IMG/VR virus record: IMGVR_UViG_2695420886_000004
DNA: 64,000 nucleotides
Origin: a virus
Strand: one strand, 5' to 3'
Shown here: positions 19,286 through 62,371 of the stretch, piece after piece
How the letters are laid out: each line of letters begins with the position of its first letter
Numbering within the stretch: position 1 is the stretch's first letter
Program-made: the position numbers and the translations under genes
Notes under the pieces: model-generated
The model's input: the letters and a program-made list of their open reading frames with translations, nothing else
What the model was told of the DNA's origin: nothing
The model's database searches: none

Positions 19286-19665
19286 TCCCCACCCTGATCC
19301 GGGCCTATGAGGCCAGCGCCGCGATCGGCCCTTACAAGATCGCCAAGTTTTCCGATGCCGCGGCCAGCACCAAGATCGGCCCGGCTGCCGCTAACACCGA
19401 TCCGGTGCTGGGCGTGACCGGCCAGTTCGGCGGTGCCGTGGGCGACATGGTCGATGTCACGCAAAGCGGTATCGGTCAGGTCACGCTTGGCGGCACCGTC
19501 ACCGCGGGCGCCGAGCTGACCTCTGACGCCAACGGCAACGCCATCGCCGCCGTGCCCACCGCCGGTGTCTACATGTCCGTCGTTGGCAAGGCGCAGGCCC
19601 CCGGCGTGGCGGGCGACGTCATCGAAATCCTGGTCGGTCCGCGCGCGTTCTATCGCGGCGCCTGA
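19282..19665 (+). CDS. capsid decoration/cement protein (DUF2190-like)
   Basis: Gly/Ala-rich beta protein between protease and capsid. Confidence 0.72.
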   Translation: MIPTLIRAYEASAAIGPYKIAKFSDAAASTKIGPAAANTDPVLGVTGQFGGAVGDMVDVTQSGIGQVTLGGTVTAGAELTSDANGNAIAAVPTAGVYMSVVGKAQAPGVAGDVIEILVGPRAFYRGA

Positions 19666-19687
19666 TCCCCCACAGCAAGAGGTTCCC

Positions 19688-20662
19688 ATGGCCACCAGCC
19701 GCCCGTTCGTCGTCGATGCCACGCTTACCGCTGTGACGATCGGCTTCCAGAATGGCTCCGCGATGCGGATTGCCGACAAGGTTCTGCCCCGCCTGCCGGT
19801 GTCGAACGAAAAGTTCAAATACACGGTCTATCCGATCAGCGAGGCCTTCAACACGCCCGACGCCCGCGTCGGCCGCAAGGGCGCGGTCAAGCAGCTCGAA
19901 TTCAGCGGTGCCGAAGTGACCTCGGACGTTGCTGACTACGGTCTCGACAGTCCGATCCCGCAATCGGACATCGATGCCGCCAATGCGGCCAAGGCCGAGG
20001 GTCGGACGATCTATGACCCGGAAGCCCATGCGACCGAGATGCTGACCGAGACCATCGAGAACATCCGCGAGTTGCGGGTCGCGAACATGGTCTTCAACGC
20101 GGCCTCCTATGCCGCGAGCCGCCGGATCACGCTGTCGGGCATGTCGCAGTTTTCGGACTATGCGAACTCCGACCCGATCGGCGTGATCGCGGCCGGGATG
20201 GATGCGACCCTGATCTATCGCCCGAACACCGTCGTGATGGGCCGCGCGGTCTGGTCGAAGCTGTCTTCGCATCCCAAGATCGTCAACGCCGTCAAGGGCA
20301 ACGTCTCCAACCAGGGCCGGATCTCGATCGACCAGTTCAAGGAGCTGCTGGCGGGCGACGGGATCACCGAGGTCTTGGTCGGCGATGCCTGGGCGAACAC
20401 CGCCAAGCCGGGCCAGAACCCGGCGCTGGCGCGCACCTGGGGCAATCATCTGGCGCTTCTGCATCTCAATCCGCTGGCGAGCGTCGAACAGGGCGGCATC
20501 ACCTTCGGCTTCACGGCGCAGTTCGGCGACCGGCTGGCCGGGCGGATCGAGGATCCGGATATCGGCCTTCAGGGCGGTTTCCGCATCCGCGTCGGCGAGC
20601 GGGTGCGCGAGCTGATCTCGGCGCAGGACGTCGGCTATTTCGTGCAAAACGCCATCGCCTGA
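19688..20662 (+). CDS. major capsid protein (not Mu gpT-type; gpE-like by recall)
   Basis: Position; IADKVLPRLPV, PNTVVMG..VW..L..HP; no visible similarity to 61481..62371. Confidence 0.82.
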   Translation: MATSRPFVVDATLTAVTIGFQNGSAMRIADKVLPRLPVSNEKFKYTVYPISEAFNTPDARVGRKGAVKQLEFSGAEVTSDVADYGLDSPIPQSDIDAANAAKAEGRTIYDPEAHATEMLTETIENIRELRVANMVFNAASYAASRRITLSGMSQFSDYANSDPIGVIAAGMDATLIYRPNTVVMGRAVWSKLSSHPKIVNAVKGNVSNQGRISIDQFKELLAGDGITEVLVGDAWANTAKPGQNPALARTWGNHLALLHLNPLASVEQGGITFGFTAQFGDRLAGRIEDPDIGLQGGFRIRVGERVRELISAQDVGYFVQNAIA

Positions 20663-32327: not shown

Positions 32328-32591
32328 ATGAGCGATCTGATCTATGACATTCCCGATCTGACCGGCCCGGCCCTGTCCTCGTTTGCGGTCACCCCCAATG
32401 ATGCGGCGGACCTGCCCGCGCCCGTGCGCGCCTTGACGATCGGCGAGCGGGGCGGCGTCGTCAAATATACCGCCGCGCGCGGCGGCGCCGTTTGCACCAC
32501 CGGCTATCTGCCGGTCGGGCAATACCCGATCTGGGCCAGCCGCATCTGGGCGACCGGCACCACGGCCGAGGGGATGACGGGGTGGGTCTGA
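32328..32591 (+). CDS. ghsA: GTA head-spike base-like protein (GhsA/Rcc01079-like)
   Basis: 87 aa, P...F.VTP.D..DL....RAL...GG...RIWATGTTA...GW pattern recalled for the RcGTA spike base; TGATG-coupled to fibre gene. Confidence 0.72.
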   Translation: MSDLIYDIPDLTGPALSSFAVTPNDAADLPAPVRALTIGERGGVVKYTAARGGAVCTTGYLPVGQYPIWASRIWATGTTAEGMTGWV

Positions 32592-33568
32592 TGACGGGGC
32601 TTCCGGGGTGCGGGATGGGCGGCGGCGGCGTGGCACCGCTTGCAGGCTATGCCGTGGGCGGGGTCATGCCCGTGCTGCTGCATGATTTTGTGGCGGGTCT
32701 CACCCTCGGGTCGCCTTGGGCCCTGACGCGGGCCAGCCCGGCGACCTATGTGGGTGCCGACGGGCTGATCAGGTCTGCCCCCGCCGATCAGCCCCGCTAT
32801 GATTACAGCACCGGTAAGCGGGCGCTTCTGCTTGAGGCATCCGCGACCAACCTGCTGCCCAACAGCGCGCAGTTCGATGCCGCGTCCTGGGGGAAAACCC
32901 GGGCCAGCGTGCTGGCAAATGCCGCGCTGGCCCCGGATGGCACCATGACGGCCGACAAGCTTGTCGAAGACACCAGCAACAACAGCCATTTCGTCGCCCG
33001 CACCGGAACGCAGATCGCGGCGGGGACCTCCGTGACCGCCTCGATCTTCGTCAAGGCGGCCGAGCGTCGGTGGTTTGCCCTGGTCACCGCCGACAGCGCG
33101 AATGCCTTCCGCACCAGCTATTTCGACCTGCAGACGGGGACGCTCGGGGTGGTGTCGCAGGGCGCGGCGGGGCATGTGGCGCAGATCGTGGCGGCGGGGA
33201 ACGGCTGGTATCGCTGCAGCGTGACGCAGACGCAGGCGGCAAGCGGCAATTTCAACGTCTATCCGAGCGTCGTCAGCGCGAATGGCGCGACCTCTTACCC
33301 GGGGGATGGCGCCTCCGGGCTTTACCTGTGGGGGGCGCAGCTGGAGACCGGCGCCGCGGTCAGTTCGGTCATTCCGACCGAGGCCGCGGCGGTGACCCGG
33401 GCGGCGGATCTGGCCAGCGTGGCGGTGGCGGCGGGAAGCTATGATCTCCGCCGCATCGACGCCGCAGGAACGACCGTCACCAAAGGCGTCGCGCATCCTG
33501 GCGGGGCGCTGACGATCGGCGCCGGAAGCCTCTACCTGCTCAGCCTTTATCCGGCCGGAGCGCTCTGA
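32591..33568 (+). CDS. ghsB: GTA head-spike fibre-like protein (GhsB/Rcc01080-like)
   Basis: 325 aa; PRYDYSTGKRALLLEASATNLLPNS...LSLYPAGAL matches the recalled RcGTA fibre; near-identical to 48402..49397. Confidence 0.82.
   Translation: MTGLPGCGMGGGGVAPLAGYAVGGVMPVLLHDFVAGLTLGSPWALTRASPATYVGADGLIRSAPADQPRYDYSTGKRALLLEASATNLLPNSAQFDAASWGKTRASVLANAALAPDGTMTADKLVEDTSNNSHFVARTGTQIAAGTSVTASIFVKAAERRWFALVTADSANAFRTSYFDLQTGTLGVVSQGAAGHVAQIVAAGNGWYRCSVTQTQAASGNFNVYPSVVSANGATSYPGDGASGLYLWGAQLETGAAVSSVIPTEAAAVTRAADLASVAVAAGSYDLRRIDAAGTTVTKGVAHPGGALTIGAGSLYLLSLYPAGAL
32841..33453 (+). repeat. shared spike-domain segment, copy 1
   Basis: About 20 substitutions and one 3-bp indel versus 48664..49279 (manual count). 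Confidence 0.95.
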
Positions 33569-33613
33569 CCGGATCGACCGGGGCTTTGCCACGGCAGAGG
33601 CGGTCATGTAGCG

Positions 33614-33656
33614 CGACAAAAATACCCGGGACAAAACGACAAAAATACCCGGGACA
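33614..33656. repeat. tandem 20-bp direct repeat, candidate transposase-binding sites at a prophage end
   Basis: CGACAAAAATACCCGGGACA at 33614..33633 and 33637..33656 (23-bp period), 7 bp inside TG at 33607. Confidence 0.75.
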
Positions 33657-33701
33657 CAGCGTGACCAGAGAAAGAGGGTAGCTATGCGCTGAGAGCAACG
33701 C

Positions 33702-34196
33702 TCAATGTGCTTTGAGCTTAACCGCAGTGCCGCTAGCAACCAGAAAAAGCATGCTTTTCCCGCCCCCTGATATCTCGGAATAATCAAGATCAATCGCCAC
33801 AACCGCGTCGGCCCCCATGGTCAGCGCCTGCTCTCTCAGCTCCGTTAGGGCTGCTTCTTTCGCTTCCTTCAGCCCACGCTGCATGGTTTGGGATCGACCT
33901 CCAAAGAAGTCGCGGGCCGACGACGCAATGTCCCTGAAAACGTTGAGGCCGACCACATACTCGGCAGCGATCACTCCGATCCTTGTCTCGACACCAAGAT
34001 CTGATGACGACTCGGTCGTGAGCATGATTTTTGCCAGACAAGCCCCGTGAGCTTCGCTTGCAGCTCGCTCCGCCTCATCAGCCGCTGCCTTCTCGGCAGC
34101 CTCAAGCTGTCGTTTCAATGCATGACAATCGGGGCACAAACCCTCGAACAAGTCGAACCGTGAAACTTTCTCACCGCATTTCGCGCAGTTTGCCAT
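33702..34196 (-). CDS. YbjQ/UPF0145 family protein with N-terminal Zn ribbon
   Basis: CAKC...CPDC, then [11 protein letters not shown]...FFGGRS...[12 protein letters not shown]...GTAV. Confidence 0.85.
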
Positions 34197-34200
34197 CCCA

Positions 34201-34884
34201 CTACTCCGTGCTTGTGTGGCCCCACCAAAGAACTCTTCCGATGATCCGCATGGAGCTGATCGTCGCCAATCTCTTGAACTCTGTCTTGAACTCCGGGTTG
34301 TCTGACATCACCGCGAAGAAGTCCGTGTCAACAAGCTCGATGCGCTTCACACGCGCAACCCCATCCTCGACGAAAGCGTAGATCGGCGGCGCTCGCCGAG
34401 AGGACTTGGAGCGCGCCAAAACGTCCGTTTTTGACGTGTCGATTAAGATCATGTCGCCATCCGACAACGTGGGCGCCATGCTGTCACCGTGTACCCGCGC
34501 AACCCTGGCCCTAGATGCCGAGATGCCAAGCCTCTTTAGCCAATCGCGCCTAAACGCCAGCGCTCCAACAACGACATCGTCGCCATTCACGTAGCCGTTC
34601 CCAGCGGACAACGTAGCTTCGTGCAGCGGGATCTTCGCAAAATCATCGTCTTTTGGCGGAAGGATATTGACCGGCTGGTAGTCTCTAGGCGGGCCGAAAT
34701 ACAACTCCAAGCCAAGCGCGTCAGCTATCTTGGCGGCTTTGTCGATGTTCGGAACGGCCCGCTTCTCATCCTCGCGGACCACACCGCGGATGTAGCCCTG
34801 TGGCAAACCAGCTCTTGCCTCCGCCTGATTCACGTTCAGGCCAAGCTCAGCTAGTCGGGCAAGAACAACGTCAGCAAACGCCAT
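34201..34884 (-). CDS. CI-type repressor (HTH plus S24 autopeptidase)
   Basis: N-terminal HTH, SAG cleavage site, GDSMAPTL (Ser), VKRI (Lys). Confidence 0.92.
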
Positions 34885-47210: not shown

Positions 47211-47509
47211 CCGACATGCAGACCCTGATCCGGGAACAGGCCCGCCTGATCATCCTGAAAGCCCTCGTGCAGCAGGTGGACGAAACGCTGAACTCGGATC
47301 TGATGATCCCCGAGCTGAAGGCCTTTGGCATCCGCAAATCGCGCGAGTGGGTGCACGACGAACTCGCTTGGCTCAGCGAGATGGGCGCGGTCACCACCGT
47401 CGCCGTCGGCACGATCATGGTGGCGACACTGACCGACAAGGGCCATCGCCACCTTGATCGTGAAATCGCGATCGAGGGTATCCAGCGCCCGTCGCGGCCG
47501 GGGGGCTGA
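47207..47509 (+). CDS. Mu gp26-like protein
   Basis: Homolog of 11548..11847. Confidence 0.72.
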   Translation: MTDMQTLIREQARLIILKALVQQVDETLNSDLMIPELKAFGIRKSREWVHDELAWLSEMGAVTTVAVGTIMVATLTDKGHRHLDREIAIEGIQRPSRPGG

Positions 47510-47510
47510 A

Positions 47511-48122
47511 ATGGCCGAGACCAGCCGCGGCCGCGGTCGCCTGTCTTCGATCGACCTTATGCCGTCCGAGTGTGACGGGATCATCGCCTGGGCGGCGCAG
47601 GAACTGGGCAACCGCGAGCGTACCCAGACCGAGATCTACGCCCAATTCGTCGAACGGTGCGAGGCGCTGATGCGCGAGCATCGGGGCGAGCTTGAATTCA
47701 AGATCCCGGCCTTCAGCTCGTTCAACCGTTACGCCATCCGCATGGCGCGGTTGACGCGGCGGCTCGATCAGACGCGGGCGATCGTTTCGCAGCTCGCCGA
47801 CCGGTTCGACCCGGCCGACGCTGACAACCTGACCGTGATGGCGGCCGAGACGATCAAGGCGCTCGTGCTGCAGATGCTGGCCGAGGCCGACGAGGACAGC
47901 GTCGATCCGCTCGGCGTCATGCAGTTGGCCGCCGGGTTCAAGAACGCGGTTCAGGCGCAAAGCATCTCGACTGATCGGCGCCGCAAGGCCGAGGCCGACA
48001 TGGCGAAAAAGGTCGATCAGGCCGTGACCGCTGTTGCGAAGGCCAAAGGCATGACCGCCGAAACGGCCGAGGCGATCAAAGCGCAAATTCTGGGGGTTCA
48101 AGCCCCGCAAAACGGAGGTTGA
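47511..48122 (+). CDS. DUF3486/gp27 small terminase-like protein
   Basis: RGRLSSIDLMP...SSFNRY. Confidence 0.82.
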   Translation: MAETSRGRGRLSSIDLMPSECDGIIAWAAQELGNRERTQTEIYAQFVERCEALMREHRGELEFKIPAFSSFNRYAIRMARLTRRLDQTRAIVSQLADRFDPADADNLTVMAAETIKALVLQMLAEADEDSVDPLGVMQLAAGFKNAVQAQSISTDRRRKAEADMAKKVDQAVTAVAKAKGMTAETAEAIKAQILGVQAPQNGG

Positions 48123-48124
48123 TC

Positions 48125-48409
48125 ATGCCGCGTTCTGCCACTGTGCCCGTGCCCGCCCGCACGTTTGTTGCTCTGACCACCGCCGATGTCACCCGGGCGC
48201 GGGTGCAAAACCCCACGAATATACCGGTGCGCCTGATCGGGACCACGACGGACACCGCACCCACGGGTCTCGACGGTGCGCTGTGGCTCTTCGCCCGGCA
48301 AACCTTCGCGGCTGATATCCTCTTCGATCAGATTTGGCCTGATGCGGGCATCAAGCGGCTCTGGGCCTGGTCGGAGGGAGCGACAGCTCTCGAAGTCGCT
48401 CATGGGTGA
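48125..48409 (+). CDS. candidate alternative spike-base protein
   Basis: 94-aa beta-rich ORF overlapping the spike fibre start; no visible similarity to 32328..32591. Confidence 0.6.
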   Translation: MPRSATVPVPARTFVALTTADVTRARVQNPTNIPVRLIGTTTDTAPTGLDGALWLFARQTFAADILFDQIWPDAGIKRLWAWSEGATALEVAHG

Positions 48410-49397
48410 CTGGTTTGGCAACGACTTTCGGCTTCCAGGGCCGGGGCGATCACGGTCATTTGCGGGCAGCAAACACACGGTAGCAGGGGTGCCGCCCGTA
48501 GCTCTGCTCGACTTCGAGCAGGGCATCTATACCACGCCGCTGGTCCTCACCCGGGCCTCGACAGCGACGTATTTTGACGCCTCCGGTGCGTTGCAAATTG
48601 CAGCCGCAGATGCCGCAAGGTACGATTACAGCGCCGGGCGGAGGGCGCTGCTGATCGAGGCGGCCGCGACCAACCTGCTGCCGAACAGTGCGCAGTTCGA
48701 TGCCGCGTCCTGGGGGAAAACCCGGGCCAGCGTTCTGGCAAATGCCGCGCTGGCCCCGGATGGCACCATGACGGCCGACAAGCTTGTCGAAGATACCAGC
48801 AACAACAGCCATTTCGTCGCCCGCACCGGAACGCAGATCGCGGTGGGGACCTCCGTGACCGCCTCGATCTTCGTCAAGGCGGCCGAGCGTCGGTGGTTTG
48901 CCCTTGTGACCGCGGACAGCGCGAATGCCTTCCGCACCACCTATTTCGACCTGCAGACGGGGACGCTCGGGGTGGTGTCGCAGGGCGCGGCGGGGCATGT
49001 GGCGCAGATCGCGGCGGCGGGGAATGGCTGGTATCGCTGCAGCGTGACGCAGACGCAGGCGGCGGCGAGCGGCAATTTCAACGTCTATCCGAGCGTTGTC
49101 AGTGCGAATGGCGCGACCTCTTATCTGGGGGATGGCGCCTCCGGGCTTTACCTGTGGGGCGCGCAGCTGGAGGTCGGCGCCGCCGTCAGTTCGGTCATTC
49201 CGACCGAGGCCGCGGCGGTGACCCGGGCGGCGGATCTGGCCAGCGTGGCGGTGGCGGCGGGAAGCTATGATCTCCGCCGGGTCGATGCCGCGGGAACAGT
49301 GGATGCCAAGGGCATCGTGCATGGCGGGGGGGCCGTCAGCATCGGCGCCGGATCGCTTTATTCGCTGGCCTATTACCCGGTTGGGACGCTGCCATGA
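48402..49397 (+). CDS. ghsB: GTA head-spike fibre-like protein (GhsB-like)
   Basis: 331 aa; near-identical core to 32591..33568, different N-terminal ~25 aa. Confidence 0.82.
   Translation: MGDWFGNDFRLPGPGRSRSFAGSKHTVAGVPPVALLDFEQGIYTTPLVLTRASTATYFDASGALQIAAADAARYDYSAGRRALLIEAAATNLLPNSAQFDAASWGKTRASVLANAALAPDGTMTADKLVEDTSNNSHFVARTGTQIAVGTSVTASIFVKAAERRWFALVTADSANAFRTTYFDLQTGTLGVVSQGAAGHVAQIAAAGNGWYRCSVTQTQAAASGNFNVYPSVVSANGATSYLGDGASGLYLWGAQLEVGAAVSSVIPTEAAAVTRAADLASVAVAAGSYDLRRVDAAGTVDAKGIVHGGGAVSIGAGSLYSLAYYPVGTLP
48664..49279 (+). repeat. shared spike-domain segment, copy 2
   Basis: ~96% identical to 32841..33453 by manual count. Confidence 0.95.
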
Positions 49398-49433: not shown

Positions 49434-49682
49434 ATGTCGAACGATGCCTACACCGTGGCCGCGGACGAACTGCGCCAGTTCATCGAGCAATACGAGCATC
49501 TCGAAGCCGAAAAGAAGGACATCACCGAGCAGCAAAAGGACATCATGTCCGAAGCCAAGGCGCGCGGTTACGACACCAAGGTGATCAAGAAGATCATCGC
49601 CATGCGCAAGCGGGACAAGAACGATCTGGCCGAGGAAGACGCGATTCTGGACGTCTACAAGGCTGCACTCGGCATGCCCTGA
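49434..49682 (+). CDS. gapR: DUF2312/GapR-like nucleoid-associated protein
   Basis: VAADELRQFIE..E.LE.EKK......K....EAKARGYDTK....II..RK.D...E..AIL..YK.ALGM. Confidence 0.88.
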   Translation: MSNDAYTVAADELRQFIEQYEHLEAEKKDITEQQKDIMSEAKARGYDTKVIKKIIAMRKRDKNDLAEEDAILDVYKAALGMP

Positions 49683-49812: not shown

Positions 49813-51507
49813 ATGACCGCGCCGATCAGCCAGACCGAATGGGAACGCCAGCGCCGCGACGCCACCGAGGCGCTGCCGCAGGTGATCGACGCCGTCGGCC
49901 TGCCCAAGGTGCTGCTGCCGTATCAGGCGAAGGCGGTGGGCCTCCTCGACTCGGTCTCGCGCAACATTCTCTTCGTCGAGAAGTCCCGCCGGGTGGGCCT
50001 CACCTGGGGGCTGGCCGCCTATGCCGTTCTGCGCGCCGGGCGCGAGCGGGCTGCCAAGGGCATGGACGTGATGTACATCTCCTACAGCCAGGAGATGACC
50101 CGCGAATTCATCGACGCCTGCGCGATGTGGGCCAAGGCCTTCTCGATCGCCGCGATGGACTCGGACGAGCTGCTTTTCGAGGACGCCAACCCGGCCGACC
50201 CGACCGACACCAAGCACATCCAGGCGTTCCGGATCCGCTTCGCCTCGGGCTTCGAGATCCTCGCGCTCAGCTCGGCCCCGCGCGGGCTGCGCGGCAAGCA
50301 GGGCGCGGTGATCATCGACGAGGCGGCCTTCGTCGACAGCCTGCCCGAGCTGCTGAAATCCGCGCTGGCCTTCCTGATGTGGGGCGGTCAAGTCGTCGTC
50401 TGCTCCACCCACAACGGCACCGACAACCCGTTCAACCAGACCATTCAGGACATTCTGGCCGGGCGCTCGCGCTATCAGCATCTGCGGATCGATTTCGACG
50501 ATGCGCTGCGCGACGGGCTTTACCAGCGCATCTGCCTGGTGACGGGCGAGACCTGGACGCCCGAGGCCGAGGCCGAGTGGCGGCAGAACATCATCGACTC
50601 TTACGGTGACGGCGCCGACGAGGAACTCTTCTGCATCCCGACGCAGGGCACGGGGGCATGGCTGCCCGCGCCGCTGATCGAGGCGCGCATGACGGCCGAG
50701 GCGCCGGTGCTGCGCCTCGAACTGCCCGCGACCTACATGCAGATGAACCACCTGGAGCAGGCGATCCTGCTGACCCCGTTCATGAAGCAGCTGGCCGATG
50801 CGGTGGTGGCGCTAGATCTGCGCCCGCATTACGCGATGGGCTTCGACTTTGGGCGCGTTGCCGACCTTTCAACCCTGTCTTTGCTCGCCATTGAACAACG
50901 CTTGAAACGGCGTGAAGCGCTCTCGATCGAGATGCGCAACGTGCCCGGCAAGGAACAGAAGCTGATCGTCGGCGCGGTGCTGGAGCATGTGAAGGGGCGT
51001 CTGGTCGGTGCAGCCTTCGACGCCACCGGCATGGGCTGGACGGTGGCCGAGGACATGGGCCGGAAATATGGCCTCAAGGAAGCCGAGGACAGCCCCGGCC
51101 TCGTCTGGGCGATCAAGTTCACCGAGGAATGGTATAGGCTGCAGATGCCGCCGCTGAAGGGCGCGTTCGAGGACGATCAGATCCAGTTGATCCCCGATCC
51201 CGAGCACCTTGCGGATCTGCGCATGGTCAAGCTGATCCGGGGCATCCCCCGGGTGCCTCCGGTGCGCGAGGGCGAGACCGGGAAGAAGCGGCACGGCGAC
51301 TATGCCATCGCGCTGGCCTTGGCGCATTTCGCGTCGCGGATGCGCTGGGTCGAATACGGCTACCAGCCGGTGGCGCACCGCCACGAGATCCAGCCCGGCC
51401 AGATGCACATGACCGCCGACGCGGCGGATTGGGAGGAGCTGGCCCTCGGCGCCGAGCGCGGTTGGTGGGATGGGCCGCTCGGGGCCAGCTTCAGGGGGAG
51501 CGTGTGA
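49813..51507 (+). CDS. terminase large subunit (Mu gp28-like)
   Basis: LLPYQ, EKSRRVGLTW, VIIDEAAF, STHNG, GFDFGR, RHGDYAIA. Confidence 0.93.
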   Translation: MTAPISQTEWERQRRDATEALPQVIDAVGLPKVLLPYQAKAVGLLDSVSRNILFVEKSRRVGLTWGLAAYAVLRAGRERAAKGMDVMYISYSQEMTREFIDACAMWAKAFSIAAMDSDELLFEDANPADPTDTKHIQAFRIRFASGFEILALSSAPRGLRGKQGAVIIDEAAFVDSLPELLKSALAFLMWGGQVVVCSTHNGTDNPFNQTIQDILAGRSRYQHLRIDFDDALRDGLYQRICLVTGETWTPEAEAEWRQNIIDSYGDGADEELFCIPTQGTGAWLPAPLIEARMTAEAPVLRLELPATYMQMNHLEQAILLTPFMKQLADAVVALDLRPHYAMGFDFGRVADLSTLSLLAIEQRLKRREALSIEMRNVPGKEQKLIVGAVLEHVKGRLVGAAFDATGMGWTVAEDMGRKYGLKEAEDSPGLVWAIKFTEEWYRLQMPPLKGAFEDDQIQLIPDPEHLADLRMVKLIRGIPRVPPVREGETGKKRHGDYAIALALAHFASRMRWVEYGYQPVAHRHEIQPGQMHMTADAADWEELALGAERGWWDGPLGASFRGSV

Positions 51508-55512: not shown

Positions 55513-57252
55513 TCAGGCAACGTTCCTGCTCCTGTCCGGAAGTACCTGAGGCTCAGCACTTTGAGTGTTCGTTCCGGTGAAAGTGAATAGCATTTGACGC
55601 TGCCGCGCCATTTCTCGCGGATCGACGAACCCAGAACTTGGCGCTTTCTTACGACCTGCCGCAGCCGCCGAAATGCTATCATAGAGGAGCGGAACTCGAA
55701 TGCTTCCACCTGAAAAAATGTCTGCAACTGATAGGATCTGCAACGATGGATACTCGCCAAAATCAGTTTGTATCGTGCCTGCTTTCCTCGCCTCGTCGAG
55801 CATGCCCTTGGTCGGTTCTCGTGCGCAAACAAAAACTGCAATGGCATAGCTATCTCTAGTCTGTGAGCGCTCTCGATGCAGAGTCCCTACAAGATCCCGA
55901 ATCATGCCGGGATGAACATGTTGACCACCCTTTACCGAGACGATACCGCGGCTGTGGGCATCTTTCCCTCGCAAAAAATAGAAGTAGCCATCAATCCCAT
56001 GGTCGTTTCGATAACGCCCTGAGTGCATTGCCCCAATTCTTGATACTGCCCATTCCTCAAATTTGAATGGATCATTGGCGGCGAGCCAAACAGCACCATC
56101 AACACTGTTCGGCAAACCAAAGACATCAAATTGTGCCATCGGGAAGGCGTTCTTAATTCTGTCTCGAACGACGGTCATGGCTTGAACCGCCACATCAATG
56201 CCTAGCCAATGCCTTCCCAGCATTTCGGCGGCGTGCAATGTAGTTCCGCATCCACAGAAGGGGTCGAGCACTACATCGCCGGGTCTCGACGACGCACTCA
56301 AGATCCTCTCTAGCAGTGCAATTGGCTTCTGAGTTGGATAGCCGAGTCGCTCTCTTGCAGTCTGGTTGAGGCGATCAATATCCGTCCACACGTCTCCAAC
56401 TGTGACTTCGCGGCTGCTGGGATCAAATGGTTCGGCGCCCCTACGCCGTGGAAAGCCGTTGTTCGGCGGGAAATGTATTAGACCAGCATCTGCCCAAGCA
56501 TCAAGTTGGGCGTGCGAATTTCCCCAATGCCTCCCAAGAGCTGATACATCAAAACCTCGCCAAGGCTTACCAGTCTCGCCCTCTCTTGTGACGCCCGCAC
56601 CTGTGAGTTCATACGTTTGATACTTCAGGCCATCTGCCCCGGTGATCAAAGTATGAGGCATTTTTGCATTGTCGGCCTTCACCTTTGGAATCTGGTGTAC
56701 GCTTTTTTCCGAAGAATAATGAAATATTGCGTCGTGAAGATGCGGCCAGTTTTTTGGCGTGCCGCGGGCATTGGTTCGCTTCCAGATGATCTCAGCACGA
56801 TACCACTCTGCCCCGAAAACACCATCGAGAAGTATCTTCAGATAGTGACTAGCAGTTGGATCGCAGTGCAGATACAAGCTTCCAGTCCTTTTGAGAACCC
56901 GTCTTAGCTCGACCATTCTTGCCGCCATCATGGACAAATATGCCATCATGTCGTTTTCGCCCAGAACGCTCCTGAGAGCCAACATCAGATCTGCGAGTTT
57001 ACCTGGCCGCTTGGACAACTCCGAAAACTGATCTTCAGCAACGTCACCCCAGCGCCAGGTATCATCGAAGGTAGCGATCTGAGCATCGGACCAACGCGCC
57101 TTATCTGGAGACTTGAAGAGCAGATTGTAGGTTGCGTTCGAGTTGAAGGGGGGGTCGAGATAAATCAGGTCGACGGACTCGTCGGCCACGTATTCCCTGA
57201 GTACGTGAAGGTTGTCTCCGAAGAAGAACGCGTTGCGCTGCGGATTTTTCAT
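55513..57252 (-). CDS. beta-class amino-methyltransferase fused to a Mrr/PD-(D/E)xK-like domain
   Basis: YLDPPF precedes LDPFCGCGTT; YPTQKP; C-terminal DHGIDG...IVSVKGG; visibly lower GC. Confidence 0.88.
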   Translation of the reverse strand: MKNPQRNAFFFGDNLHVLREYVADESVDLIYLDPPFNSNATYNLLFKSPDKARWSDAQIATFDDTWRWGDVAEDQFSELSKRPGKLADLMLALRSVLGENDMMAYLSMMAARMVELRRVLKRTGSLYLHCDPTASHYLKILLDGVFGAEWYRAEIIWKRTNARGTPKNWPHLHDAIFHYSSEKSVHQIPKVKADNAKMPHTLITGADGLKYQTYELTGAGVTREGETGKPWRGFDVSALGRHWGNSHAQLDAWADAGLIHFPPNNGFPRRRGAEPFDPSSREVTVGDVWTDIDRLNQTARERLGYPTQKPIALLERILSASSRPGDVVLDPFCGCGTTLHAAEMLGRHWLGIDVAVQAMTVVRDRIKNAFPMAQFDVFGLPNSVDGAVWLAANDPFKFEEWAVSRIGAMHSGRYRNDHGIDGYFYFLRGKDAHSRGIVSVKGGQHVHPGMIRDLVGTLHRERSQTRDSYAIAVFVCAREPTKGMLDEARKAGTIQTDFGEYPSLQILSVADIFSGGSIRVPLLYDSISAAAAGRKKAPSSGFVDPREMARQRQMLFTFTGTNTQSAEPQVLPDRSRNVA

Positions 57253-57760
57253 TGCTCTGCCTCGAATGCTTTTTCAGAAAGCCTGCATGAGTATCCTTCG
57301 CACACAAAGAATATTGCTAAGTCGATCAACGCAACAATTTAGGGTGTTGCTGAAAATCGTCACGCTTGATGGGCGTCAGCGTGACGCTGGATGCCTCAGA
57401 GGCCTTGCGCGCAATATGATGTGTCAAACGAAAAGTGACCAGAAGTGGAAGAATCTGCGCGCACCCGTCATCTTAGCAAGTCAACCTTAAAACTAGGGCA
57501 AAAATGGTGAAAATCCCATTGACGACGGATGTCACTGCGCGGAAGATTATGTCCGTCAGCAGCCCCACGCTCCAGATCTAGTGAGTACGGAACAGCTGGC
57601 ACGCTCGAGAGACGAATCTTACCACGGACAGTCTCTCGAGCGTTCAAACACGGAACGCCTTTCGGCAGTCTCCCCCTGTTCTGAGGCAAAGAGTGCCATT
57701 GATCAGGCGTGATTTCAAGTCGAAAGGGGCAACGCCCTTGAGGCAGAAAGACGCAAGAAA

Positions 57761-58516
57761 ATGCAGTATTCGCTGCAATTGATCGAGCACGTAGTTCAGG
57801 GAGCCCCTGTTCAGCAACGTGCAAAAGATGGCTACATCAATGCCACGGCCATGTGCCGGATAGCCGGGAAGTTGTGGTCTGACTACAATCGCCTAGCAAC
57901 GACCCAAGCGTTCTTCTCCGCGCTGAGTTCCGATATGGGAATTCCCATATCGGAACTCGTTCAGTCCTCTAAAGGTGGTGACCCACGCCTCCAGGGCACT
58001 TGGGTACACCCGCAGATCGCGCTTCATCTCGCCCAGTGGCTGTCGCCCGAGTTCGCGGTGAAGGTCAGCAAGTGGGTCTACGATTGGCTCAGCGGCAACC
58101 GCGCTCAATCGAACGGCAGCTACCATCTTCGGCGGTACACCTCGAACATGCGTAACATCCCCTACGGTCACTGGTCGATGCTTCAGGAGATGATGATCCA
58201 GTTGATCGGTCCCATGGAATCGATGGGCTATGTCCTGCCGGAAAACATGCTACCGGACATCTCGGAAGGGCGCATGTTCTGCAAATTCCTCAGGGAACAG
58301 CATAACTTGGACACCGATAGACTGCCGACGTATGAGCACGTCTTCGAGGACGGTAGAGTCGTTCGGCCGAAGGCATATCCAAATGCGCTTCTCCCCGGCT
58401 TCAGGGCCCATTTCTTCGAGGTCTGGATGCCCCAAAAGGCGATCGACTACTTCAAAGTTAAAGACCCGGTCGCACTCGACTTTTTACCGTATTTACTGAC
58501 GAAGCCCGCGCTTTGA
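57761..58516 (+). CDS. KilA-N domain protein
   Basis: QRAKDGYINATAMC...GTWVHP.IA..LAQWLSPEFAVKV..WV. Confidence 0.9.
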   Translation: MQYSLQLIEHVVQGAPVQQRAKDGYINATAMCRIAGKLWSDYNRLATTQAFFSALSSDMGIPISELVQSSKGGDPRLQGTWVHPQIALHLAQWLSPEFAVKVSKWVYDWLSGNRAQSNGSYHLRRYTSNMRNIPYGHWSMLQEMMIQLIGPMESMGYVLPENMLPDISEGRMFCKFLREQHNLDTDRLPTYEHVFEDGRVVRPKAYPNALLPGFRAHFFEVWMPQKAIDYFKVKDPVALDFLPYLLTKPAL

Positions 58517-58529
58517 AAACCAACTACGG

Positions 58530-58554
58530 GGAGGGGCAGCTGCGTTGCCCCTCC
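58530..58554. terminator. hairpin between convergent KilA-N and dam genes
   Basis: GGAGGGGCA / TGCCCCTCC 9-bp perfect stem. Confidence 0.6.
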
Positions 58555-58558
58555 ATCT

Positions 58559-59359
58559 TCAGAAGCCAATTGACGAAGAAATCACCAGTTCACCCCGCAT
58601 CGGAGCCCGATCGGTGTTCGCCCCGACTGTGTAGCTGACCTTCACCTCCTCGATCATCGCCCAGGCGAACATCTCGCGGATCTCCGGCATGTCGTTGATC
58701 GACAGGATGAAGCGCCCTTTGATGCCGCGCAGCACCTCGACCATCCGCCCGAAATCCTCCCGGCTGAACATCGCTTTGCCGTAATCGTCCTCGCAGCCCC
58801 AGTACGGCGGATCCAGGTAGAACAGCGTTTCCGGCCCGTCATAACGAGGGATGAAGTCCGCCCAGTCCAGGCACTCGATCACCACGCCGGAGAGCCGCGA
58901 GTGCAGATCCTCAAGCATCGGCTCCAGCGTTGTCAGGTTGAAGCGCCCAGGGCGGTCCTTCGAGACGCCGAAATTGCGCCCGCTCACCTTGCCGCCGAAG
59001 GCGGTGCGCTGAAGGTAAAGGAAACGCGCCGCGCGTTCGAGGTCGGTCAGCGTTTCCGGGTTGGTGTCGACCAGGCGGTTGAACTCGGCGCGGGTGGTGA
59101 GCTGGAAGCGCAGCACCTCAAGGAACTGCGGATAGTGACGCTGCAGGATCCGGAACAGGTTCGACACGTCCCGGCCGCGATCGTTGATCACCTCGGCTTT
59201 CGGGCGGCGCGTGCGGCGCAGGAACACCCCGCCCATGCCCACGAAGGGCTCGCAATAGGTGGTGCAATCGATCGCATCGATCATGGCGCAGAGTCGCTTG
59301 GCAAGGTTGCGCTTGCCGCCCAGCCAAGGGGCGACGGGGGACGTGGGCTCAACGATCAT
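58559..59359 (-). CDS. dam: Dam/D12-class DNA adenine methyltransferase
   Basis: PWLGGKR, EPFVGMGGV, EVIND, FYLDPPY; ATG at 59359 with SD. Confidence 0.92.
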   Translation of the reverse strand: MIVEPTSPVAPWLGGKRNLAKRLCAMIDAIDCTTYCEPFVGMGGVFLRRTRRPKAEVINDRGRDVSNLFRILQRHYPQFLEVLRFQLTTRAEFNRLVDTNPETLTDLERAARFLYLQRTAFGGKVSGRNFGVSKDRPGRFNLTTLEPMLEDLHSRLSGVVIECLDWADFIPRYDGPETLFYLDPPYWGCEDDYGKAMFSREDFGRMVEVLRGIKGRFILSINDMPEIREMFAWAMIEEVKVSYTVGANTDRAPMRGELVISSSIGF

Positions 59360-59383
59360 GGTGATTTCCTCATTTCCGAGTGA

Positions 59384-59398
59384 GAACATAGCACGAAC
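59384..59398 (-). promoter_or_regulatory. alphaproteobacterial LexA (SOS) box
   Basis: GAAC-ATAGCAC-GAAC (GTTC-N7-GTTC on - strand), 25 bp upstream of dam. Confidence 0.6.
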
Positions 59399-59580
59399 AT
59401 TCTGCAAGAACGAAGCCGAATCGAAGGCACTTGACGATTCGGCTTTGGGCGCGCAGCCTTAAATCCGTCGCAGCGAGAACATCGCGAACATGGTTGGCTA
59501 GTGGCCCCCAACACTGAACGGCAGCTGCGCGCCGTGGTGTCTGATCTTCCAAAACACACGTTGGATCGAAAGGAGACCTC

Positions 59581-61027: not shown

Positions 61028-61461
61028 TGGCCCTCGTCGCTGACCGCAACACGCCTGCCTATGCGGGCGACCTTCGCGAGGGGCCGGTGGCCGCTGCGCA
61101 GCTCATCTACGGCGGTGCCATGGTGATGGTGAATGCCGCCGGTTACCTGGTGAAGGGCCAGACGGCGACCGGCCTGATCGGCGTCGGCCGGGCCGAGAGC
61201 CGCGTCGACAACTCGGCCGGTGCCGCCGGGGCGATCACGCTGCGCTACAAGCCGGGCACCTACCGGTTCAAGAACTCGACCGCGGGCGATCTGATCACCG
61301 CCGCCGACATCGGCAAGGCCTGCTACGCGGTCGATGACGAAACCGTCGCGCTGACCTCCGCCACCAACACGCGCTCTCCGGCCGGAACCATCGACTCGGT
61401 CGATGCGAATGGCGTCTGGGTGCGCTTCGACGCTGCGCTCACCCGCGCCGTGCTCTCGTGA
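61027..61461 (+). CDS. capsid decoration protein (DUF2190-like)
   Basis: MAL.ADRNT...IYGG...DIGK.CY.VDD.TV...GVWV. Confidence 0.75.
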   Translation: MALVADRNTPAYAGDLREGPVAAAQLIYGGAMVMVNAAGYLVKGQTATGLIGVGRAESRVDNSAGAAGAITLRYKPGTYRFKNSTAGDLITAADIGKACYAVDDETVALTSATNTRSPAGTIDSVDANGVWVRFDAALTRAVLS

Positions 61462-61480
61462 TCCCCGGAAAGGACTGACC

Positions 61481-62371
61481 ATGCTCGTCAATGCCGCAAC
61501 CCTCGACGCGCTGCGCGTCGGCTTCAAGACCTCGTTCCAGAATGGGCTCGGCCAGGCGCCGAGCCAGTACGAGCGCATCGCCACCATCGTGCCCGCCAAC
61601 ACCAAGGAAGTGAAATACGGCTGGCTCGGCAAGATCCCGAACGTGCGCGAATGGATCGGCGCCCGGGCCGTGCAGAACCTGTCGCAGTCCGACTATTCGA
61701 TCAAGGAAAAGGCCTGGGAACTCACCCTCGGCGTCGATCGCGATGACATCGAGACCGACAACCTCGGGATCTACACGCCGCTCTTCACCGAATTTGGCCG
61801 CTCGACCGGTGCGAAGTGGGATCAGCTGGTGTTCGCCCAGCTCAAGGCCGGGTTCACCACCAACTGTTACGACGGGCAGTATTTTTTCGACACCGATCAC
61901 CCGGTCCTCGATGCCGACGGCAACACCATCACCGTCTCGAACACGGGGGGCGGGGCGGGCACGCCCTGGTTCCTGCTCGACACCACGCGGGCGCTGAAGC
62001 CGATCATCCTGCAGCGCCGCCGCGACTTCGAATTCGTGTCGAAGACCAAGACCGACGACGACCACGTCTTCATGAACAAGGAATTCCTCTACGGCACCGA
62101 TGCCCGCGCCAACGTCGGGTTCGGCTTCTGGCAGATGGCCTACGGCTCGAAGCAGACGCTGGACGCGACGAACTATGCCACCGCCCGGGCGGCGCTGATG
62201 GGGATGAAGGGCGATTACGACCGGCCGATGGGCATCACGCCCAACCTGCTCGTCGTGCCGCCCGCGCTCGAAGGGGCGGCGAACAAGCTGATGAAGAACG
62301 ATCAGATCAACGGCTCGGACAACGAGTGGAAGGGCACGGCCGAGGTGCTGGTGGTGCCGTGGCTCGCATAA
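61481..62371 (+). CDS. Mu gpT-type major capsid protein
   Basis: YGWLG.IP..REWIG, ELTLGVDRDDIE.DNLG, YFFDTDHP, PNLLVVPPALE. Confidence 0.93.
   Translation: MLVNAATLDALRVGFKTSFQNGLGQAPSQYERIATIVPANTKEVKYGWLGKIPNVREWIGARAVQNLSQSDYSIKEKAWELTLGVDRDDIETDNLGIYTPLFTEFGRSTGAKWDQLVFAQLKAGFTTNCYDGQYFFDTDHPVLDADGNTITVSNTGGGAGTPWFLLDTTRALKPIILQRRRDFEFVSKTKTDDDHVFMNKEFLYGTDARANVGFGFWQMAYGSKQTLDATNYATARAALMGMKGDYDRPMGITPNLLVVPPALEGAANKLMKNDQINGSDNEWKGTAEVLVVPWLA

What the first reader, a model, noticed from the sequence alone, without database searches (positions are those of the whole stretch)
32328..33568. Mu-like phages carrying gene-transfer-agent head spikes as a swappable capsule-binding module
Seen: A ends with an 87-aa plus 325-aa gene pair; B has a 94-aa plus 331-aa pair in its terminase region. 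The fibres share ~613 bp at ~96% identity while other A/B paralogs are far more diverged; N-terminal peptides, partner base proteins and capsid families differ. Recalled, unverified: the A pair resembles RcGTA GhsA/GhsB (Rcc01079/80), the spikes that bind recipient capsular polysaccharide and dock through the fibre N-terminus, and the fibre core looks nearly identical. Inference: a receptor-binding domain is recently exchanged among GTA and transposable phages and grafted onto different capsids via matched base/N-peptide adaptors, so the phages would use, or compete for, the GTA receptor.
Basis: partly seen in the sequence, partly recalled or inferred. Interest (0 to 1): 0.9.

Follow-up and report, generated by a model that had tools for sequence, protein, structure and literature searches.

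The report
Shared capsule-binding spike module in prophages
Two Mu-like prophages in a Rhodobacter capsulatus chromosome each carry a small "base + fibre" gene pair whose sugar-binding core is about 96% identical to that of the host gene transfer agent's head-spike fibre. The homology is already published; what appears new is that this core is repeatedly recombined among the agent and the prophages, while the attachment ends stay particle-specific.

Summary
Window 32328-33568 holds an 87-aa and a 325-aa gene. The 87-aa protein belongs to the Rcc01079 (GhsA) spike-base family. The 325-aa protein matches the solved Rcc01080 (GhsB) head-spike fibre at E=1e-168.

Prophage B has a 94-aa + 331-aa pair (48125-49397) between its gp27-like small terminase and its large terminase. 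The two fibre cores are 95.7% identical over 629 nt. Other A/B homologues are 66-70% identical.

New points:
- Prophage A is not RcapMu. Only the cassette is shared with it (97%), starting exactly at codon 10 of the base gene.
- The exchange units are nested: whole cassette, fibre from codon 68 to the end, and core only.
- Core dS is 0.10-0.15, against 0.7 to saturated in the flanks, and a PHI test gives 0 of 2000 permutations. A shares private variants with this genome's own ghsB. In strain SP108 ghsB is closest to the co-resident B-type fibre.
- B's 94-aa partner is a confident jelly-roll with no detectable homology to Rcc01079. Its relatives precede variable fibres that share an N-terminal motif.

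The ghsB homology to RcapMu is already published (Hynes 2016; Rapala 2021; NCBIfam). Head versus tail location in the phages, and capsule dependence, remain untested. I rate this a new variant of a known kind, of moderate interest.

The parts
32328..32591 (+). Spike-base gene of prophage A (87 aa). It is an RcapMu gp57 orthologue and a member of the Rcc01079/GhsA family.
   Evidence: NCBIfam NF048002 equivalog, 73.8 bits against a cut-off of 28. PDB 6tb9_E3, E=5e-5, 35% identity. phrog_12296. Identical to RcapMu57 from codon 10 on; the first 9 codons are unrelated.
32591..33568 (+). Spike-fibre gene of prophage A (325 aa; alternative GTG start at 32582). It combines an RcapMu gp58-type N-terminus with a GhsB-type core and C-terminus.
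   Evidence: PDB 6tb9_F3 Rcc01080, E=1.3e-168. NF048003, 174.7 bits, residues 80-272. 97% nt identity to RcapMu.
32354..33606 (+). Cassette block shared at about 97% with RcapMu and RcWaterboi. The rest of prophage A shows no detectable nucleotide similarity to RcapMu.
   Evidence: blastn maps; junction alignment.
32792..33568 (+). Segment of the A fibre (codon 68 to the stop) shared at 93-100% with chromosomal GTA ghsB.
   Evidence: Sliding codon identity jumps from about 0.57 to 0.98 at this point. blastn gives 851 bp at 94.2%.
32846..33472 (+). Carbohydrate-binding core shared by A, B and ghsB (A residues 86-294).
   Evidence: dS is 0.10-0.15 in the core. PHI test: 0 of 2000 permutations.
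48125..48409 (+). 94-aa partner gene of prophage B: a small jelly-roll with no detectable homology to Rcc01079.
   Evidence: No Pfam, NCBIfam or PHROG hit. 103 distant relatives of about 95 aa. AF2 model with pLDDT 93.9. Fold hits are generic jelly-rolls, including viral turret and spike proteins, Z 5.8-8.6, and small uncharacterised Caudovirales proteins, TM up to 0.93.
48402..49397 (+). Spike-fibre gene of prophage B (331 aa), with its own N-terminal peptide and C-terminal domain.
   Evidence: NF048003, 176.3 bits. AF2 model with pLDDT 88; residues 1-20 disordered. Fold matches Pa193/E217 baseplate proteins and carbohydrate-binding modules.
48669..49298 (+). Core of the B fibre, 95.7% identical to the A core.
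47454..48122 (+). Mu gp27-like small terminase of B, immediately upstream of the B cassette.
   Evidence: PF11985, 112.9 bits; phrog_426.
49813..51507 (+). Gene at the large-terminase position of B (564 aa), downstream of the cassette and of the GapR-like gene.
   Evidence: 79% nt identity to the RS1 gene at that position, RHVG_00032, which the record annotates only as hypothetical protein. No Pfam hit; the terminase reading rests on position and size.
19565..20662 (+). Major capsid protein candidate of A (gpE-like, weak). It shares 23% aa with the RcapMu capsid protein.
61403..62371 (+). Major capsid protein of B (Mu gpT family).
   Evidence: PF10124, 420 bits.

Best explanation
The finding is the right-end cassette of a Mu-like siphophage prophage (A). 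It encodes an 87-aa jelly-roll 'spike base' of the Rcc01079/GhsA family, translationally coupled to a 325-aa lectin-like 'spike fibre' of the Rcc01080/GhsB family. It is the RcapMu gp57/gp58 cassette, carried in a phage backbone that is otherwise unrelated to RcapMu at the nucleotide level. The neighbouring prophage B carries an analogous cassette in its packaging region, with a non-homologous 94-aa jelly-roll partner.

Shown here: all three fibres (A, B and this chromosome's own GTA ghsB, about 220 kb away) share a core of about 630 nt. This core coincides with the carbohydrate-binding domain NF048003. It is kept 94-97% identical by repeated homologous recombination (gene conversion) between the chromosomal GTA gene and co-resident prophage genes. 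The flanking parts are unrelated or saturated.

The exchange units are nested:
1. The whole cassette minus the first 9 base codons (A and RcapMu).
2. The fibre from codon 68 to the end (A/RcapMu and ghsB).
3. The core only (B and the others).

Inferred:
- The core binds the R. capsulatus capsular polysaccharide, as shown experimentally for GhsB, and gives reversible primary adsorption.
- The variable parts are particle-specific adaptors. The disordered fibre N-terminal peptide plugs into a pentamer of the base. The base N-terminal arm grips the capsid penton, as in the RcGTA cryo-EM structure.
- For A this rests on family membership. For B it is a hypothesis based on analogy of gene arrangement, size, fold class and a conserved partner N-terminal motif.
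For: Family identity.

Nested breakpoints.

Recombination rather than selection:
- dS is 0.10-0.15 in the core, against 0.7 to saturated in the N-terminus and 0.9-1.4 in B's C-terminus. dN/dS is about 0.1-0.2.
- Mutually incompatible site patterns: 451 of 1081 informative site pairs are incompatible, and PHI is 0.287 against 0.418 with 0 of 2000 permutations.

Exchange inside cells:
- A against RcapMu58 has N-terminal dS of 0.017 but core dS of 0.11.
- 19 of the 22 A/RcapMu58 core differences are shared with the co-resident ghsB and/or B. Five are private to this genome and shared only by A and its ghsB.
- The A core is 9-11 differences per 306 nt from its own genome's ghsB and B, but 33 from another A-type prophage (L091).
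- SP108 ghsB is 14 per 306 from the co-resident B-type fibre and 39-41 from other strains' ghsB. Both SP108 contigs end in a 321-nt contig of about 1.6x coverage, which looks like a collapsed repeat.
- Core allele classes cross contexts in the protein clusters.

Adaptor reading:
- Bardy 2020 (PMC7296036): fibre residues 2-10 (IALGLGLGL) dock in five hydrophobic pockets of the base pentamer, and the base N-termini bind the capsid penton.
- Here the base N-arm differs between A and RcapMu, whose capsid proteins are only 23% identical. It follows the phage backbone in 2 A-type and 4 RcapMu-type cases.
- Partners of Rcc01079-family bases start with alternating hydrophobic/small residues, e.g. MIDVGVDVW and MSLGLSGCGM.
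- Partners of B-94 relatives overlap by 8 nt and share M[RG][DE]..(F/L)xLP.
- Residues 1-20 of the B fibre are predicted disordered.

Glycan binding: fold matches to carbohydrate-binding modules and to tailspike glycan-binding domains. GhsB binds capsule (Alim 2023, PMC10218006; Hynes 2016).
Against: - No virion-location data exist for any phage copy. RcapMu, RcWaterboi and PHROGs annotate these proteins as tail or tail-fibre proteins. The A cassette sits after the tail genes.
- The closest full-length structural relatives of the fibre are baseplate proteins of Pa193 and E217.
- Glu12 of Rcc01079, which coordinates the cation with the capsid, aligns with Thr in the A base.
- B-94 did not retrieve Rcc01079 in any sequence or fold search.
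- The complex prediction could not be run.
- Clustering by genome is not universal. One strain's RcapMu-type fibre (P0264) carries a core allele unlike that strain's ghsB.
- Prophage A lacks a visible right end because B's left end starts 38 bp after the fibre stop. A may therefore be defective.
Confidence: 0.7

Rival explanations
1. The genes and the recombination are the same, but in the phages the cassette is a tail appendage (side or baseplate fibre), not a head spike. The small partner would be a tail-attachment or assembly adaptor.
For: Annotations as tail or tail-fibre protein. The A/RcapMu cassette follows the gpJ-like central fibre gene. The fibre fold is closest to Pa193 gp46 and E217 gp45 baseplate proteins and to a gp17 tail fibre. 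In L086 the B-94 relative and its 689-aa fn3 fibre lie after a lysozyme gene at the end of a structural block.
Against: The annotations are by position, not experiment. RcGTA's pair was also first called a tail fibre and turned out to be head-borne. The A base is a scored equivalog of a protein solved as a pentamer on capsid pentons. The cassette also occurs far from tail genes: between the small and large terminase genes in B and SP108, and between Q and holin in L093.
Confidence: 0.3
2. The near-identity of the cores reflects strong purifying selection on an old shared domain, not exchange.
For: dN/dS in the core is low, 0.1-0.2.
Against: Synonymous divergence drops about ten-fold inside the core, with sharp edges. 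The site patterns are incompatible and the PHI test is significant. Genome-private synonymous variants are shared between paralogues.
Confidence: 0.03
3. One or both prophage cassettes are inert cargo or decaying remnants, serving only as donors and acceptors in recombination and playing no part in phage adsorption.
For: Prophage A has no right end in place. SB1003 carries truncated or frameshifted copies in another prophage region (P0278, P0275). No independent promoter was found.
Against: Both pairs are intact, translationally coupled and embedded in late operons. The cores are under purifying selection. The B cassette is conserved in the same slot in SP108. The A-type cassette recurs in L091, and in the plaque-forming phages RcapMu and RcWaterboi.
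Confidence: 0.1

Closest known systems
RcGTA head spike GhsA/GhsB (Rcc01079/Rcc01080; PDB 6TB9, 6TBA, 6TSU, 6TUI; Westbye 2016, Hynes 2016, Bardy 2020, Alim 2023)
   Same: Two overlapping genes: a jelly-roll base of about 85 aa and a fibre of about 325 aa. The A base scores as a family equivalog. The A fibre is about 97% aa identical from residue 68 to the end. The B fibre shares the core, with 8-13 amino-acid changes in 209 residues.
   Different: The phage copies lie in Mu-like prophages, not next to the capsule genes. The fibre N-terminal peptide differs: TGLPGCGMG (A) and GDWFGNDFRLPGPG (B), against IALGLGLGL. The A base is only 35% identical to Rcc01079 and lacks Glu12. B's partner is not detectably homologous. 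The capsid proteins are gpE-like (A) and gpT (B), not the RcGTA capsid protein.
Rhodobacter phages RcapMu gp57/gp58 and RcWaterboi gp55/gp56 (Fogg 2011; Rapala 2021)
   Same: The A cassette is 96-97% nt identical to them from base codon 10 to about 40 nt past the fibre stop. It occupies the same position at the right end, after the tail genes.
   Different: The rest of prophage A has no nucleotide similarity to RcapMu. Its nearest relatives are vB_PeaS-P1 and vB_RhkS_P1, at 78% in the large terminase gene. The first 9 base codons and the upstream gene differ. The A core carries patches matching its own host's ghsB.
Mosaic receptor-binding proteins of tailed phages (domain-level swapping of tail-fibre tips; prophage-prophage fibre recombination)
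   Same: Homologous recombination replaces a receptor-binding domain and keeps the virion-attachment end.
   Different: One partner here is a domesticated chromosomal GTA gene. The attachment system, a peptide docked in a pentameric base, differs between carriers.
Vertex turrets and spikes built on small jelly-rolls (HFTV1 turret, STIV A223, PM2 P1, PRD1/PR772 vertex proteins)
   Same: B-94 is a jelly-roll of 94 aa. These proteins are among its structural neighbours (Z 5.8-7.7). The B fibre weakly matches HFTV1 turret chain TA (E=8.6e-4).
   Different: The scores are in the range of generic jelly-roll similarity. There is no sequence homology, and no evidence of location.

Membership tests
Spike base protein, RCAP_Rcc01079/GhsA family (NF048002) | Sequence scores above the curated family cut-off | tested here: met
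   A 87-aa protein: 73.8 bits against 28; PDB 6tb9_E3, E=5e-5.
Spike base protein, RCAP_Rcc01079/GhsA family (NF048002) | The same criterion applied to B's 94-aa partner | tested here: not met
   No NCBIfam, Pfam or PHROG hit. A profile of 60 relatives finds nothing in the PDB. hhalign against the Rcc01079-family profile gives probability 0.6%. The jelly-roll fold class is shared, but Rcc01079 is not among the listed matches.
Spike base protein, RCAP_Rcc01079/GhsA family (NF048002) | Gene lies immediately upstream of, and overlaps, the fibre gene | tested here: met
   A: TGATG overlap. The GTA loci have the same arrangement. B: 8-nt overlap.
Spike base protein, RCAP_Rcc01079/GhsA family (NF048002) | Pentamer seated on capsid pentons through its N-terminal arm, with a Glu12-cation-Asp210 bridge | tested here: inconclusive
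   Glu12 aligns with Thr in the A base and RcapMu57. The arm (residues 1-9) is the one part not shared between A and RcapMu.
Head spike fibre, Rcc01080/GhsB (NF048003 domain) | Carries the spike-fibre domain above the cut-off | tested here: met
   A 174.7 bits and B 176.3 bits against 36. A matches PDB Rcc01080 at E=1.3e-168.
Head spike fibre, Rcc01080/GhsB (NF048003 domain) | N-terminal residues 2-10 with (I/L)-x repeats that fill five pockets of the base pentamer | tested here: inconclusive
   A has T-G-L-P-G-C-G-M-G, which is Gly-alternating but not a strict repeat. SP108's RcapMu-type fibre has M-S-L-G-L-S-G-C-G-M, and the L093 partner has I-D-V-G-V-D-V-W. B has a different motif.
Head spike fibre, Rcc01080/GhsB (NF048003 domain) | Binds the R. 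capsulatus capsular polysaccharide | not testable with these tools
   Shown for GhsB only. For A and B it is inferred from about 97% core identity and a carbohydrate-binding-module fold.
Head spike fibre, Rcc01080/GhsB (NF048003 domain) | Located on the capsid, not the tail | not testable with these tools
   No virion data for the phage copies were found in the searchable literature.
Mu-like transposable phages | Mu-type transposase, Mu portal, protease I, gp27, and TG-initiated end with tandem transposase sites | tested here: met
   Both A and B have a transposase with Mu-transpos_C, a Portal_Mu and a Mu-like protease. B also has gp27 and gpT. B's left end TGTAGCGCG with two 20-bp repeats starts at 33607.

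The most novel reading that the evidence does not exclude
In R. capsulatus the capsule-binding domain of the domesticated GTA head spike and those of resident transposable prophages form one recombining pool. The GTA's recipient range would then be continually reset by, or imposed on, the phages that prey on the same cells. B's 94-aa protein would define a second, non-homologous family of vertex adaptors that lets the same lectin domain be mounted on gpT-type capsids through a matched N-terminal peptide.
Probability: 0.35. Interest if true: 0.65.

Novelty: new variant of a known kind. Interest (0 to 1): 0.5.

Why it matters
GTAs are usually treated as host-controlled elements that evolve apart from phages. 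These data show a GTA receptor-binding gene exchanging sequence, inside the cell, with prophage genes. That ties GTA recipient range to the phage-host arms race.

It also gives a concrete model for how one sugar-binding domain can be moved between particles. Short docking parts are swapped: the fibre N-terminal peptide and the base N-terminal arm.

The system can be tested directly. RcapMu and RcWaterboi form plaques. Capsule mutants and fluorescent GhsB already exist. The RcGTA spike base has a solved structure.

The B-94 family is widespread in uncharacterised phage genomes, so a function for it would annotate many small ORFs.

Tried and rejected
- Whole-genome search of the window's assembly: none is held. 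The genome's own ghsAB locus was reached instead through exact-protein look-ups.
There is therefore no verdict on binding.
- Sequence or fold link between B-94 and Rcc01079: nothing found by PDB profile search, hhalign, Foldseek PDB, VIA wide or VIA second look. Only generic jelly-roll similarity appeared, so homology is neither shown nor excluded.
- ESM Atlas for B-94: only unnamed, mostly viral clusters. A PRD1_P5_spike_N lead scored 0.75, below the usable level.
- Viral-contig scan with the B-94 alignment or the single protein: no usable pattern and no relatives.
- Westbye 2016 (J Mol Biol) is not held. What that paper says about RcapMu identity levels could not be checked; only citations of it could.
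- Promoter and terminator scans around both cassettes were uninformative.
- I first assumed that prophage A is RcapMu, because of the 97% hit. The whole-window map rejected this.
No profile or fold test was done.
- The direction of transfer (GTA to phage or phage to GTA) was considered and left open. The history is reticulate and unrooted.
Full report
**What is there.** The window lies in a complete Rhodobacter capsulatus chromosome (CP198956.1, 3,707,158 bp). It holds two Mu-like prophages side by side.

- Prophage A (from before position 1 to about 33606) has a Mu-type transposase, a Mu portal, a Mu I protease and a weakly gpE-like capsid protein.
- Prophage B (from 33607 to beyond 64000) is 66-79% identical in nucleotides to Rhodovulum phage RS1 and Rhodobacter phage RC1. 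It has gp27, a Mu portal, protease I and a gpT capsid protein.

**The observation.**

- A ends with an 87-aa gene (32328-32591) and a 325-aa gene (32591-33568) that overlap as TGATG.
- B has a 94-aa gene (48125-48409) and a 331-aa gene (48402-49397) overlapping by 8 nt. They lie between its gp27-like small terminase and its large terminase. RS1 holds an unrelated reverse-strand gene in that slot.
- The two fibre genes align over 677 bp at 94.4%. The strict core (A 32846-33472, B 48669-49298) is 95.7% identical over 629 columns.
- Other A/B homologues are 66-70% identical or not alignable.

**Identity of the proteins.**

- The A base scores 73.8 bits against NCBIfam NF048002, 'spike base protein, RCAP_Rcc01079 family' (cut-off 28). 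It matches PDB chain 6tb9_E3 at E=5e-5.
- The A fibre matches PDB 6tb9_F3, 'Head spike fiber Rcc01080', at E=1.3e-168.
- Both fibres carry NF048003 at about 175 bits.
- The recalled resemblance to GhsA/GhsB is therefore confirmed.
- B's 94-aa protein hits no Pfam, NCBIfam or PHROG family.

**A correction: prophage A is not RcapMu.** The first phage search suggested that A was RcapMu (97% identity). The whole-window map shows that only 32354-33618 matches RcapMu. A's tail region has no phage match at the nucleotide level, and its nearest relatives are vB_PeaS-P1 and vB_RhkS_P1, at 78% in the large terminase gene.

The gene upstream of the cassette is unrelated to RcapMu56. The capsid proteins of A and RcapMu are 23% identical. 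The junction is exact: from codon 10 of the base gene (DLTGPALSS...) the two phages are identical, while the first nine codons (MSDLIYDIP against MNDYFKGESI) are unrelated.

**Nested exchange units.** Codon-aligned sliding identity and blastn show three blocks:

1. The whole cassette minus the base N-arm is shared by A, RcapMu and RcWaterboi at 96-97%.
2. The fibre from codon 68 (PRYDYSTGK) to the stop is shared by A/RcapMu and chromosomal ghsB. Identity rises from about 0.57 to 0.98 at that point.
3. Only the core is shared by B too. B's N-terminal 85 codons and last 35 codons are at 0.5-0.65.

The core coincides with the NF048003 domain (residues 80-272 of A).

**Exchange, not conservation.**

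- Synonymous divergence is 0.10-0.15 in the core. It is 0.7 to saturated in the N-terminus and 0.9-1.4 in B's C-terminus. Core dN/dS is about 0.1-0.2.
- Site patterns in the core conflict with one another.
- Among seven distinct cores, 451 of 1081 informative site pairs are incompatible. PHI is 0.287 against a permuted mean of 0.418, with 0 of 2000 permutations as low.

**Exchange inside cells.** The chromosome's own ghsA/ghsB locus sits upstream of capsule glycosyltransferases, about 220 kb from the window (L089).

- A and RcapMu58 differ by one synonymous site in the first 75 codons (dS 0.017) but by dS 0.11 in the core.
- Of the 22 core sites where they differ, 19 carry in A the base found in the co-resident ghsB and/or B. 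Five are variants seen only in this genome, shared by A and its ghsB.
- In the first 306 nt of the core, A is 9-11 differences from its own genome's B and ghsB. It is 33 from the fibre of another A-type prophage (L091).
- In strain SP108, which holds all three cassette types, ghsB is 14 differences from the co-resident B-type fibre and 39-41 from ghsB of other strains.
- Both SP108 contigs break in the core and continue into a 321-nt contig of about 1.6x coverage, which is best read as a collapsed repeat.
- At protein level, three core allele classes each occur in more than one context.
- Clustering by genome is not universal. P0264, an RcapMu-type fibre, has a core unlike its strain's ghsB. 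The history is reticulate, and I do not infer a direction.

**How it probably works.** In RcGTA, eleven spikes sit on capsid pentons. Each is a pentamer of Rcc01079 plus one Rcc01080. The base N-termini grip the capsid protein. Fibre residues 2-10 (IALGLGLGL) fill five hydrophobic pockets of the base, and the rest of the fibre is flexible and binds the capsule (Bardy 2020; Alim 2023; Hynes 2016). The parts that are not exchanged here are those docking parts.

- The base N-arm follows the phage backbone. The A-type arm occurs in the window and in L091. The RcapMu-type arm occurs in RcapMu, L092, RcWaterboi and SP108.
- Fibres paired with Rcc01079-family bases begin with alternating hydrophobic and small residues.
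- The B fibre model (pLDDT 88) has a disordered first 20 residues. Its folded part resembles carbohydrate-binding modules and the glycan-binding parts of tailspikes.
- From about 97% core identity I infer that A and B fibres bind the same capsular polysaccharide as GhsB. This was not tested.

**B's partner.**

- B-94 has 103 distant relatives of about 95 aa.
- Where context could be read, the next gene starts 8 nt before the small gene's stop codon ends and encodes a variable fibre-like protein. One example is a 689-aa fn3 protein in L086.
- Four of five such partners share an N-terminal motif, M[RG][DE]..(F/L)xLP.
- The AF2 model (pLDDT 93.9) is a jelly-roll.
- Its structural neighbours are generic jelly-rolls, among them viral turret and spike proteins: STIV A223 (Z 7.7), PM2 P1 (6.9) and the HFTV1 turret (5.8). 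It also resembles many small uncharacterised Caudovirales proteins, with TM up to 0.93.
- No search linked it to Rcc01079.
- It is therefore an analogue in size, fold class and gene arrangement, not a demonstrated homologue. Its role as a vertex adaptor is a hypothesis.

**Position is not decisive.** The cassette sits after the tail genes in A and RcapMu. It sits between the small and large terminase genes in B and SP108, between Q and holin in a lambdoid metagenomic phage (L093), and next to the capsule genes for the GTA. This fits a self-contained mobile module. It leaves head against tail location open for the phages, whose records call these proteins tail proteins by position only.

**What is already known.**

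- Hynes 2016 reported rcc01080 homologues in RcapMu. That paper also reported several rcc01079/rcc01080 paralogues in SB1003 prophage regions and suggested frequent horizontal exchange.
- Rapala 2021 repeated the RcapMu and RcWaterboi match.
- NCBI names these proteins with dedicated models.
- I found no report of the following: the nested breakpoints, intragenomic conversion between ghsB and prophage fibres, the base-arm swap, or the B-type cassette. B-type cassettes are absent from SB1003. Westbye 2016 could not be read.

**Verdict.** The core claim of a swappable capsule-binding module is well supported by sequence. Head location, receptor use and direction of transfer are inferences. I rate it a new variant of a known kind, of moderate interest.

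Noticed in passing
window 33569-33701: B's left end (TGTAGCGCG, then two 20-bp repeats ACAAAAATACCCGGGACA at 23-bp spacing) starts at 33607, only 38 bp after the A fibre stop. No A right end (attR) lies between them. Either B is inserted inside A just upstream of A's attR, or A is truncated. RcapMu's ends are TGTAGGGG... and ...GCGCGCTACA.
   Followed up: partly
window 55513-59400: Low-GC island (52-60%) in prophage B between the G-like gene and the protease gene. It includes a 578-aa N6_N4 DNA methylase on the minus strand and a KilA-N protein (57761-58516).
   Followed up: partly
window 49434-49682: A GapR-like DNA-binding protein (PF10073, 108.7 bits) is encoded between the B spike cassette and the large terminase gene, in the late operon.
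   Followed up: partly
window 33702-34196 (minus strand): The first gene at B's left end is a YbjQ-family protein with an N-terminal zinc-ribbon-like CxxC...CxxC. It is 63% aa identical to RS1 gene 1, and an S24/HTH repressor gene follows it (34201-34884).
   Followed up: partly
L093:7971-8758: A lambdoid metagenomic phage carries an Rcc01079-family base (49% aa identity to the A base) plus an unrelated 174-aa partner starting MIDVGVDVW. The pair sits right after a Q-like antiterminator and before the holin. The base family therefore pairs with different 'fibres' and sits at different genome positions.
   Followed up: partly
L003, L004, L005 (R. capsulatus SP108 draft): The contigs carrying the B-type fibre and ghsB both end inside the core and share their last 86 nt with a 321-nt contig of higher coverage. 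The assembly collapsed a repeat shared by the GTA gene and a prophage gene.
   Followed up: partly
No profile or fold test was done.
   Followed up: partly
P0278, P0281, P0282, P0275 (SB1003 and other strains): Truncated or frameshifted fibre copies (283 aa with a scrambled C-terminus; 266 aa lacking the N-terminus) persist in another prophage region of several strains. They carry core alleles of different classes and could act as further donors for conversion.
   Followed up: no
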